Shown here: positions 60,653 to 61,110 of the stretch, piece after piece
Layout of the letters: each line of letters begins with the position of its first letter
How positions within the stretch are numbered: position 1 is the first letter of the stretch
Notes under the pieces: generated by a model
What the model saw: only the letters and a program-made list of their open reading frames with translations
The model's database searches: none
Told to the model about the DNA's origin: nothing
Made by a program: the position numbers and the translations under genes
Assembly (NCBI RefSeq): GCF_964213995.1
Contig: NW_027590192.1
Span: 558,001-622,000, forward strand
DNA length: 64,000 bases
Direction: 5' to 3'
DNA from: Mustelus asterias
Lineage: Eukaryota

Positions 60653-60691
60653 GGTTTTTGTACAGTGACTGCCGTCTTTCCTCTCAGTGTG
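60653..60691 (-). other. 23-bp-spacer RSS
   Basis: CACACTG + 23 nt + perfect ACAAAAACC. Confidence 0.95.
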
Positions 60692-61110
60692 GGCTCTATC
60701 GCACAGTAATATAAAGCGGTATCTCTGCTCTCCGTGTTTTCAATCATCAACTGGCTCGATTTGTCCGCAGTGGAAAGTTCCAATTCGAATCGGTCCTTTC
60801 TCTCTTTGCCATCCGAGAATCTGCGTATCATCCACTGCAGACCTTGACCGGGCTTTTGTCTGTACCGATACATTCTGTAAATGCTGGACATATCATAGCT
60901 GCAGTTTAGCCGCACCGAATCCCCGCTCTGGGCTGTTCTGGCTATGGGAGTTTGTGAAACTTGGTCCGAACGACACCGATCTATAAAAAAAACATTTAGT
61001 CAATTCGGCACTGGAGCAAAATGCACTTAAATAGCAGTCTCGACACGTTATAGAGTAAATTTCTTGCACTTACAAATTAGTAGAACCATAATAAAATGGA
61101 ACAGACTCAT
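60692..61110 (-). CDS. TCR alpha/delta-type V gene segment, open frame (leader 61074-61110, intron 60981-61073, V exon 60692-60980); conserved Trp41 replaced by Arg
   Basis: Spliced product MSLFHFIMVLLIYRCRS-DQVSQTP..VRLNCSY..MYRYRQKPGQG..DTALYYCAIE with a GT-AG phase-1 intron. Confidence 0.9.

What the first reader, a model, noticed from the sequence alone, without database searches (positions are those of the whole stretch)
60653..61110. Apparently rearrangeable antigen-receptor V segment lacking the invariant Trp41
Seen: an intact leader exon, a 93-nt GT-AG intron, an open V exon with both canonical Cys, and a 23-RSS with a perfect nonamer. The WYRQ motif reads RYRQ (CGG in place of TGG). 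Known: Trp41 is the core residue of the Ig V fold, and 23-RSS V segments with this layout are typical of TCR alpha/delta. Inference: the segment could still be a RAG substrate while encoding a destabilised or unusual V domain. Somatic hypermutation of shark TCR chains is reported, and a single C-to-T change at this codon would restore Trp.
Basis: partly seen in the sequence, partly recalled or inferred. Interest (0 to 1): 0.7.

Follow-up and report, generated by a model that had tools for sequence, protein, structure and literature searches.

The report
Decaying shark TCR V gene duplicate
This shark T-cell-receptor gene segment really has arginine where the core tryptophan belongs, but it is one of seven duplicated copies, four of them further damaged, in a family whose other members keep the tryptophan, so it is likely an ordinary dying duplicate rather than an unusual working receptor.

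Summary
In detail: leader exon, 93-nt GT-AG intron, open V exon, both cysteines, 23-RSS and CGG at codon 41. It is not an assembly error. Seven paralogues share CGG as one clade (100/100), and read contigs of three runs show no other letter there. All 36 closely related copies keep TGG. Four of 7 Arg copies carry further lesions (three stops, one lost CAC) against 3 of 36 Trp copies. The neighbouring V is broken in all five Arg blocks that hold it and open beside six Trp copies. No TCR alpha/delta J or C was found on the 797-kb contig. Best reading: an IMGT-'ORF'-type TCR alpha/delta V, possibly still cut by RAG, likely yielding no stable chain. Rescue by hypermutation is weak: the C lies outside AID hotspot motifs, and three nurse-shark clones of another Arg41 V stayed CGG. 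Expression was not testable. The genome's 19 TCR-delta constant exons were already noted by this scan on other DNA. Low interest.

The parts
61074..61110 (-). Leader exon (L-PART1), 37 nt, ATG at 61110
   Evidence: same length in all 36 Trp copies
60981..61073 (-). Intron, 93 nt, GT..AG
60692..60980 (-). V exon (L-PART2 + V-REGION), open frame, TCR alpha/delta-type
60901..60903 (-). 1st-CYS (IMGT 23) codon
60865..60867 (-). Codon 41, CGG (Arg) where relatives have TGG (Trp)
60703..60705 (-). 2nd-CYS (IMGT 104) codon; Gly in paralogue L007
60961..60963 (-). FR1 Gln codon that is a TAA stop in 3 of 7 Arg paralogues and in read contigs of X2, X3, X4
60653..60691 (-). 23-RSS: heptamer CACACTG 60691-60685, spacer 23, nonamer ACAAAAACC 60661-60653
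61259..61263 (-). CCAAT box in an upstream region that aligns with Trp paralogues for about 330 nt (promoter role inferred)
58281..58812 (+). Neighbouring convergent V of another family: frameshifted pseudogene with a decayed 23-RSS; part of the same duplicated two-gene unit

Best explanation
This is an inherited T-cell-receptor alpha/delta-type V segment with Arg in place of Trp41, and it is likely a decaying duplicate that yields no stable receptor chain. Shown: the change is shared by one clade of 7 copies in duplicated blocks; 4 of them have further disabling lesions; the partner V in the block is broken; no alpha/delta J or C was found on its contig. Inferred: after a block carrying the V pair was copied out of the intact array, selection relaxed and lesions accumulated, with Trp41-to-Arg among the first (older than the 5% split between the two sub-lineages). 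Inferred: RAG may still cut the RSS and join it to a distant D or J of the antigen-receptor complex. A buried charge in the hydrophobic core would then likely misfold the domain, so such joins would behave as non-productive. In IMGT terms it is an 'ORF'.
For: 7 CGG vs 36 TGG full-length copies at 86% or more V-exon identity, plus 3 more distant TGG copies. The CGG clade is 100/100, so Trp is the family norm. Extra lesions: 4 of 7 vs 3 of 36 (Fisher p=0.008); stops 3 of 7 vs 0 of 36 (copies are not independent). The stop occurs in both sub-lineages, whose flanks differ by 5%, and in contigs of X2, X3 and X4. The neighbour V is frameshifted in 5 of 5 Arg blocks that hold it, deleted in the other two, and open with an RSS beside six Trp copies. 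The Arg clade fixes changes at 4 of 44 otherwise invariant columns and is polymorphic at 5 more, against 0-3 fixed and 0-2 polymorphic for the three Trp subgroups. All 75 tiles of contig C160 (797,309 bases) gave no TRDC, TRAC or alpha/delta J match and no 12-RSS within one mismatch. IMGT rule: open frame with a changed conserved residue = ORF (PMC8559430, passages). Human ORF/pseudogene TRBV segments rearrange but are in frame only about 30% of the time (PMC4657264, passages).
Against: 3 of 7 Arg copies, this one included, have no second lesion in leader, splice sites, frame or RSS, and the upstream region is conserved. Within the Arg clade N/S counts are 11/5 (ratio 0.58), lower than in the Trp copies (1.10), so dN/dS does not show relaxation. 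One Trp subgroup also fixes 3 changes at invariant columns. Sharks do express V segments without Trp41: 43 of 45 nurse-shark alphaV10 clones carry Leu41. An Arg41 alphaV6 segment was rearranged in frame in 3 clones. AlphaFold2 still gives a confident V fold (pLDDT 88.9), though from an alignment dominated by Trp relatives. C160 is a 797-kb piece whose surroundings are unknown, and TRDC copies are scattered over 17 contigs, so a partner may lie beyond its ends. No expression or protein-stability data were obtained.
Confidence: 0.8

Rival explanations
1. A working variant subgroup: the Arg41 domain folds by repacking its core (the clade also fixes Val-to-Ala, Ile-to-Leu and Gly-to-Ser changes) and is used in alpha or delta chains, as the Trp-less nurse-shark alphaV10 family is.
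For: Three copies are fully open with a family-type RSS. N/S ratio is 0.58 within the clade. Leu41 alphaV10 is expressed in 43 of 45 clones. Arg41 alphaV6 clones are in frame.
Against: alphaV10 uses a hydrophobic Leu, not a charge. Stops are present in both Arg sub-lineages. The neighbour V is dead. The three alphaV6 Arg clones share one junction and also carry a 6-nt FR3 deletion, so they show rearrangement, not function.
Confidence: 0.08
2. A latent V repaired by somatic hypermutation: it rearranges, and AID-driven C-to-T change restores Trp41 in some thymocytes, which then survive selection.
For: One transition separates CGG from TGG. Hypermutation of shark TCR alpha in thymus is published (PMC5931798, abstract and sections 6, 8, 9).
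Against: The C is in ATCG, outside WRCH/DGYW. Non-hotspot G/C bases mutated at 1.61%, so roughly 1% of mutated clones would revert (my estimate). All 3 nurse-shark Arg41 alphaV6 clones kept CGG. 33 intact Trp paralogues make a revertant redundant.
Confidence: 0.05
3. A fully inert orphon: never rearranged, because no D or J is within reach or the block is closed chromatin among zinc-finger genes and retroelements.
For: No alpha/delta J or C on 797 kb. The window holds 55 C2H2 motifs and only this V pair.
Against: RSS and upstream region are intact. Other alpha/delta and NAR-TCR V segments lie 60-105 kb away. TRD J-C units are dispersed in the same kind of region. This differs from the best explanation only in whether RAG ever acts.
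Confidence: 0.06
4. Assembly error, or haplotype redundancy that inflates one wrong base.
For: Five copies are within about 1% of each other in their flanks, so some may be alleles. The window's two private bases at 60724-60725 are not seen in X1, X2 or X3 contigs.
Against: CGG is in all 7 copies, including two that are 5% divergent, and in contigs of three runs. C160 is not collinear with C71 or C88 beyond the duplicated block (20 sampled stretches).
Confidence: 0.01

Closest known systems
IMGT 'ORF' TRAV/TRDV segments (rule as quoted in PMC8559430; passages read)
   Same: Open frame, intact splice sites and RSS, one conserved core residue changed
   Different: Here the change is shared by a clade of duplicated blocks in a shark antigen-receptor region rather than by one gene in a translocon
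Human TRBV6-7 (ORF; its Arg at position 41 is recalled from IMGT and was not confirmed by any search)
   Same: Recalled to have the same Trp41-to-Arg change. It rearranges but was productive in 51 of 199 and 26 of 141 unique joins in the first two of 587 subjects (PMC4657264 supplement)
   Different: Beta chain, human, inside the main locus
Nurse shark TCR alphaV6.1 clones with CGG at codon 41 (PMC5931798 supplement 3)
   Same: Arg41 via CGG in a shark TCR V; rearranged in frame; not reverted in 3 of 3 clones
   Different: Another V family (by eye); one junction only; extra FR3 deletion
Nurse shark TCR alphaV10 family (PMC5931798 supplement 3)
   Same: Shark TCR V lacking Trp41
   Different: Leu41 with Tyr at position 23, a whole expressed family (45 clones); here a charged residue in a minority clade with stops
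Scattered TCR alpha/delta V exons of the elasmobranch antigen-receptor complex (PMC12227049; abstract and section 6 read)
   Same: Alpha/delta V exons lying between IgH clusters
   Different: The parts read describe TCR alpha/delta as a translocon; this assembly has 19 TRDC exons on 17 contigs

Membership tests
Rearranging Ig/TCR V gene segment | Leader exon, GT-AG intron, V exon and 3' RSS | tested here: met
Rearranging Ig/TCR V gene segment | V-set fold with Cys23 and Cys104 | tested here: met
   Pfam V-set; model matches TCR chains with TM about 0.87
IMGT functional V gene | CONSERVED-TRP 41 | tested here: not met
   CGG; rule
IMGT functional V gene | Seen in productive rearranged transcripts | not testable with these tools
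   No RNA holder listed
IMGT ORF V gene | Open frame without stop or frameshift, with a conserved residue changed | tested here: met
TRAV/TRDV class | Closest named relatives are alpha/delta V | tested here: met
   Best named independent hits are TCR alpha V of bat and paddlefish at 34-36%; nearly all listed Foldseek matches have TCR entry titles, and those that name the chain are alpha
TRAV/TRDV class | Groups with TRAV/TRDV in a tree, apart from TRBV, IgL and IgH | tested here: inconclusive
   33-row tree: family 96/96, base unresolved
TRAV/TRDV class | Linked to other alpha/delta locus elements | tested here: met
   Alpha/delta-like, NAR-TCR and supporting V segments 60-105 kb away on C160; relatives on C71, which holds TRAJ, TRAC and TRDC
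TRAV/TRDV class | D, J and C in cis on the same contig | tested here: not met
   None found on C160; the contig's surroundings are unknown
NAR-TCR supporting V-delta | Similar to supporting V, with the extra CDR1 cysteine and no own leader (features recalled) | tested here: not met
   It has its own leader and no CDR1 Cys; supporting V rows form a separate 99/98 clade
IMGT orphon | Outside the major locus and unable to contribute to chains | tested here: inconclusive
   No J or C on the contig, but the chromosome position is unknown and TRD J-C units are dispersed

The most novel reading that the evidence does not exclude
The open Arg41 copies are a live subgroup, perhaps re-opened from a stop-bearing ancestor, that either folds with a repacked core around Arg41 or is switched on by somatic C-to-T repair in the thymus: a germline-crippled V segment that works only after hypermutation.
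Probability: 0.1. Interest if true: 0.65.

Novelty: new member of a known kind. Interest (0 to 1): 0.15.

Why it matters
As read here it matters little: a damaged V duplicate of the kind found in every annotated TCR locus. Its modest use is as a natural test case. With 7 Arg and 36 Trp copies told apart by many diagnostic bases, repertoire reads could show whether V segments in duplicated blocks reach the dispersed delta J-C units, and whether shark TCR hypermutation ever repairs a core residue. The V family itself has no protein closer than about 41% in the libraries searched, so it appears unannotated there.

Tried and rejected
Assembly error: rejected. Whole-contig haplotig: rejected; only 2 of 20 sampled stretches (L180, L189) matched at the expected part of C160, both in or beside the block. 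Expression: no RNA holder listed; no evidence either way. Homolog searches with the single protein found nothing. dN/dS did not discriminate. The protein tree did not resolve class. The Pfam TCR-alpha-constant search rang nowhere; C exons were found instead downstream of J matches. AlphaFold confidence is uninformative about Arg burial. Copy number from read depth was not calibrated and stays open. Branch-wise substitution mapping was not done, so whether the FR1 stop is ancestral to the open copies or spread by gene conversion is unresolved (fits both). No paper confirming Arg41 in TRBV6-7 was found. No match to this family was seen among the nurse-shark alphaV1-10 rows displayed (by eye and with motif searches; not all 447 rows read). 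Rows dropped before counting: L098-L102 (partial or degraded; L098's apparent CGG is a misalignment). Six further copies of the degraded C106 type and two other degraded or partial hits were not fetched.

Full report
Observation. The leader exon is 37 nt (61110-61074) and the GT-AG intron 93 nt. The V exon (60980-60692) is open, with both cysteines and CGG at codon 41 (60867-60865). The RSS is CACACTG-23-ACAAAAACC. The exon scores as Pfam V-set (E 1.6e-13). Logan contigs of runs X1, X2 and X4 span codon 41 with no other letter listed (4 runs, at most 3 samples, one study).

Family. A search of the window's own genome gave 150 matches; I extracted 51 genes from 50 loci. Seven full-length copies carry CGG (97-100% V-exon identity). 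Thirty-six carry TGG (86-89%), and three more distant TGG copies lie at C71:19.4 Mb. Five partial or degraded rows were set aside. A DNA search returned the same 7 close copies. The CGG copies are one clade (100/100), so Trp is the family norm and Arg arose once. The heptamer CACACTG is shared by 35 of 36 Trp copies and is therefore no defect.

Decay. Three of the 7 Arg copies have a TAA in FR1. Of these, one also has a leader/donor deletion, one a nonamer change and one Cys104-to-Gly. A fourth copy has lost the heptamer CAC. Three, including this one, have no second lesion. Among 36 Trp copies three are damaged (acceptor deleted, RSS lost, frameshift). Fisher p=0.008 for lesions and 0.003 for stops, overstated because copies are related. 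Flanks split the Arg copies into two sub-lineages 5% apart, and the stop occurs in both. Either the open copies descend from a stop-bearing gene or conversion spread the stop; I could not decide. The stop letter is also in contigs of X2, X3 and X4. The convergent neighbour V at 58281-58812 is frameshifted with a decayed RSS in all five Arg blocks that hold it and is deleted in the other two. It is open with an RSS beside six Trp copies. Against this reading, N/S counts are lower in the Arg clade (11/5, ratio 0.58) than among Trp copies (37.5/9.5, ratio 1.10). One Trp subgroup also fixes three changes at invariant columns, versus four for the Arg clade.

Context. The copies sit in duplicated blocks of tens of kb (94-99.8% identical) that are not whole-contig haplotigs. 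The window otherwise holds 55 C2H2 zinc-finger motifs. All 75 tiles of contig C160 were scanned. They hold an IgH V-J pseudogene at about 655 kb and a cluster of alpha/delta-like, NAR-TCR and supporting V segments at 680-723 kb. They gave no TRDC, TRAC or alpha/delta J match and no 12-RSS within one mismatch (tiles did not overlap, so a feature on an edge could be missed). Between 652 and 732 kb the only 12-RSS within three mismatches follows a NAR-TCR V-D and would give no productive join. A TRAJ-type array and TRAC lie at C71:18.37-18.43 Mb. TRDC, identified by 71% identity to the constant region of a Mustelus NAR-TCR-type model, occurs 19 times on 17 contigs, none of them C160. Earlier scan notes had already recorded this. 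A partner beyond the contig's ends cannot be excluded.

Class. The best named independent homologues are TCR alpha V, and the predicted fold matches TCR chains. Linkage is to alpha/delta elements. The protein tree is unresolved at its base. The 23-RSS itself is not diagnostic (PMC12227049, section 6). No protein closer than about 41% was found.

Mechanism. Trp41 and residue 89 form the hydrophobic core (PMC7555362, passage), and a change of a conserved residue in an open V is IMGT's 'ORF' class (PMC8559430, passage). Human ORF and pseudogene TRBV segments do rearrange but are in frame only about 30% of the time (PMC4657264, passages). TRBV6-7, recalled as carrying Arg41, showed 51 of 199 and 26 of 141 in the first two of 587 subjects. 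I infer the same here: a possible RAG substrate with a likely misfolded product and no selection to keep it. Misfolding and rearrangement are both untested.

Hypermutation rescue. The codon-41 C is in ATCG, outside WRCH/DGYW. In nurse shark, non-hotspot G/C bases mutated at 1.61% against 6.86% in hotspots (PMC5931798, section 8), so roughly 1% of mutated clones would revert (my estimate). In that paper's supplement 3, 3 of 9 alphaV6 clones have CGG at codon 41; they share one junction and are unreverted. This shows that such a V can rearrange in a shark, not that it works. The alphaV10 family (43 of 45 clones with Leu41) shows that Trp41 is dispensable in sharks when replaced by a hydrophobic residue. 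This is the main reason to leave some weight on a working variant.

Papers seen: PMC5931798 (abstract, sections 6, 8, 9, 15, passages, parts of supplement 3); PMC12227049 (abstract, section 6); PMC7555362, PMC8559430, PMC10972964, PMC5897323 and PMC4574546 (passages); PMC4657264 (passages, two supplement rows). The Criscitiello 2010 delta-V families were not seen and may include this family.

Verdict. A real but ordinary ORF-class TCR alpha/delta V in a decaying duplicated block. New member of a known kind; interest 0.15.

Noticed in passing
G000: C71:7138099, 11043417, 12270562 and 16 other contigs: 19 TCR-delta constant exons, open at 83-100% identity; the three inspected lie behind J segments, and one has broken V segments directly upstream of the J's. 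Already noted by earlier scan reports.
   Followed up: partly
L107:1109-1353, heptamer starts (C160:703109-703353, minus strand): Five head-to-tail 23-RSS copies with a 61-nt period, four of them perfect, behind a broken NAR-TCR supporting V.
   Followed up: no
L106:7848-8600 (C160:699848-700600): NAR-TCR V apparently joined to a D in the germline: open V-D followed directly by a 12-RSS, with a NAR-TCR J about 400 nt on.
   Followed up: partly
window 60724-60725: Two adjacent bases private to the window's copy (Arg where all 6 paralogues and X1-X3 contigs give Thr); a tandem change or an assembly error.
   Followed up: partly
G000:C546:138851-233141 and C71:18374514-18416990: Two separate TRAJ-type arrays in the assembly; second locus or misplaced piece not determined.
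   Followed up: no
L096, L097 (C71:19.43-19.46 Mb): The three distant family members begin their leader with GTG where the others have ATG.
   Followed up: no
L049 (C315:40000-49999): A V beside a Trp family member resembles, by eye, the short nurse-shark alphaV9.1B clones expressed with C-alpha.
   Followed up: no
L034:3555-4300 (C160:655555-656300): IgH V-J pseudogene about 37 kb from the V; similar DNA lies beside the C71 and C88 copies.
   Followed up: partly
PMC5931798 supplement 3, rows 316-318: Three nurse-shark alphaV6.1 cDNA clones carry CGG at codon 41; a search of the main text for 'tryptophan' found no mention.
   Followed up: yes
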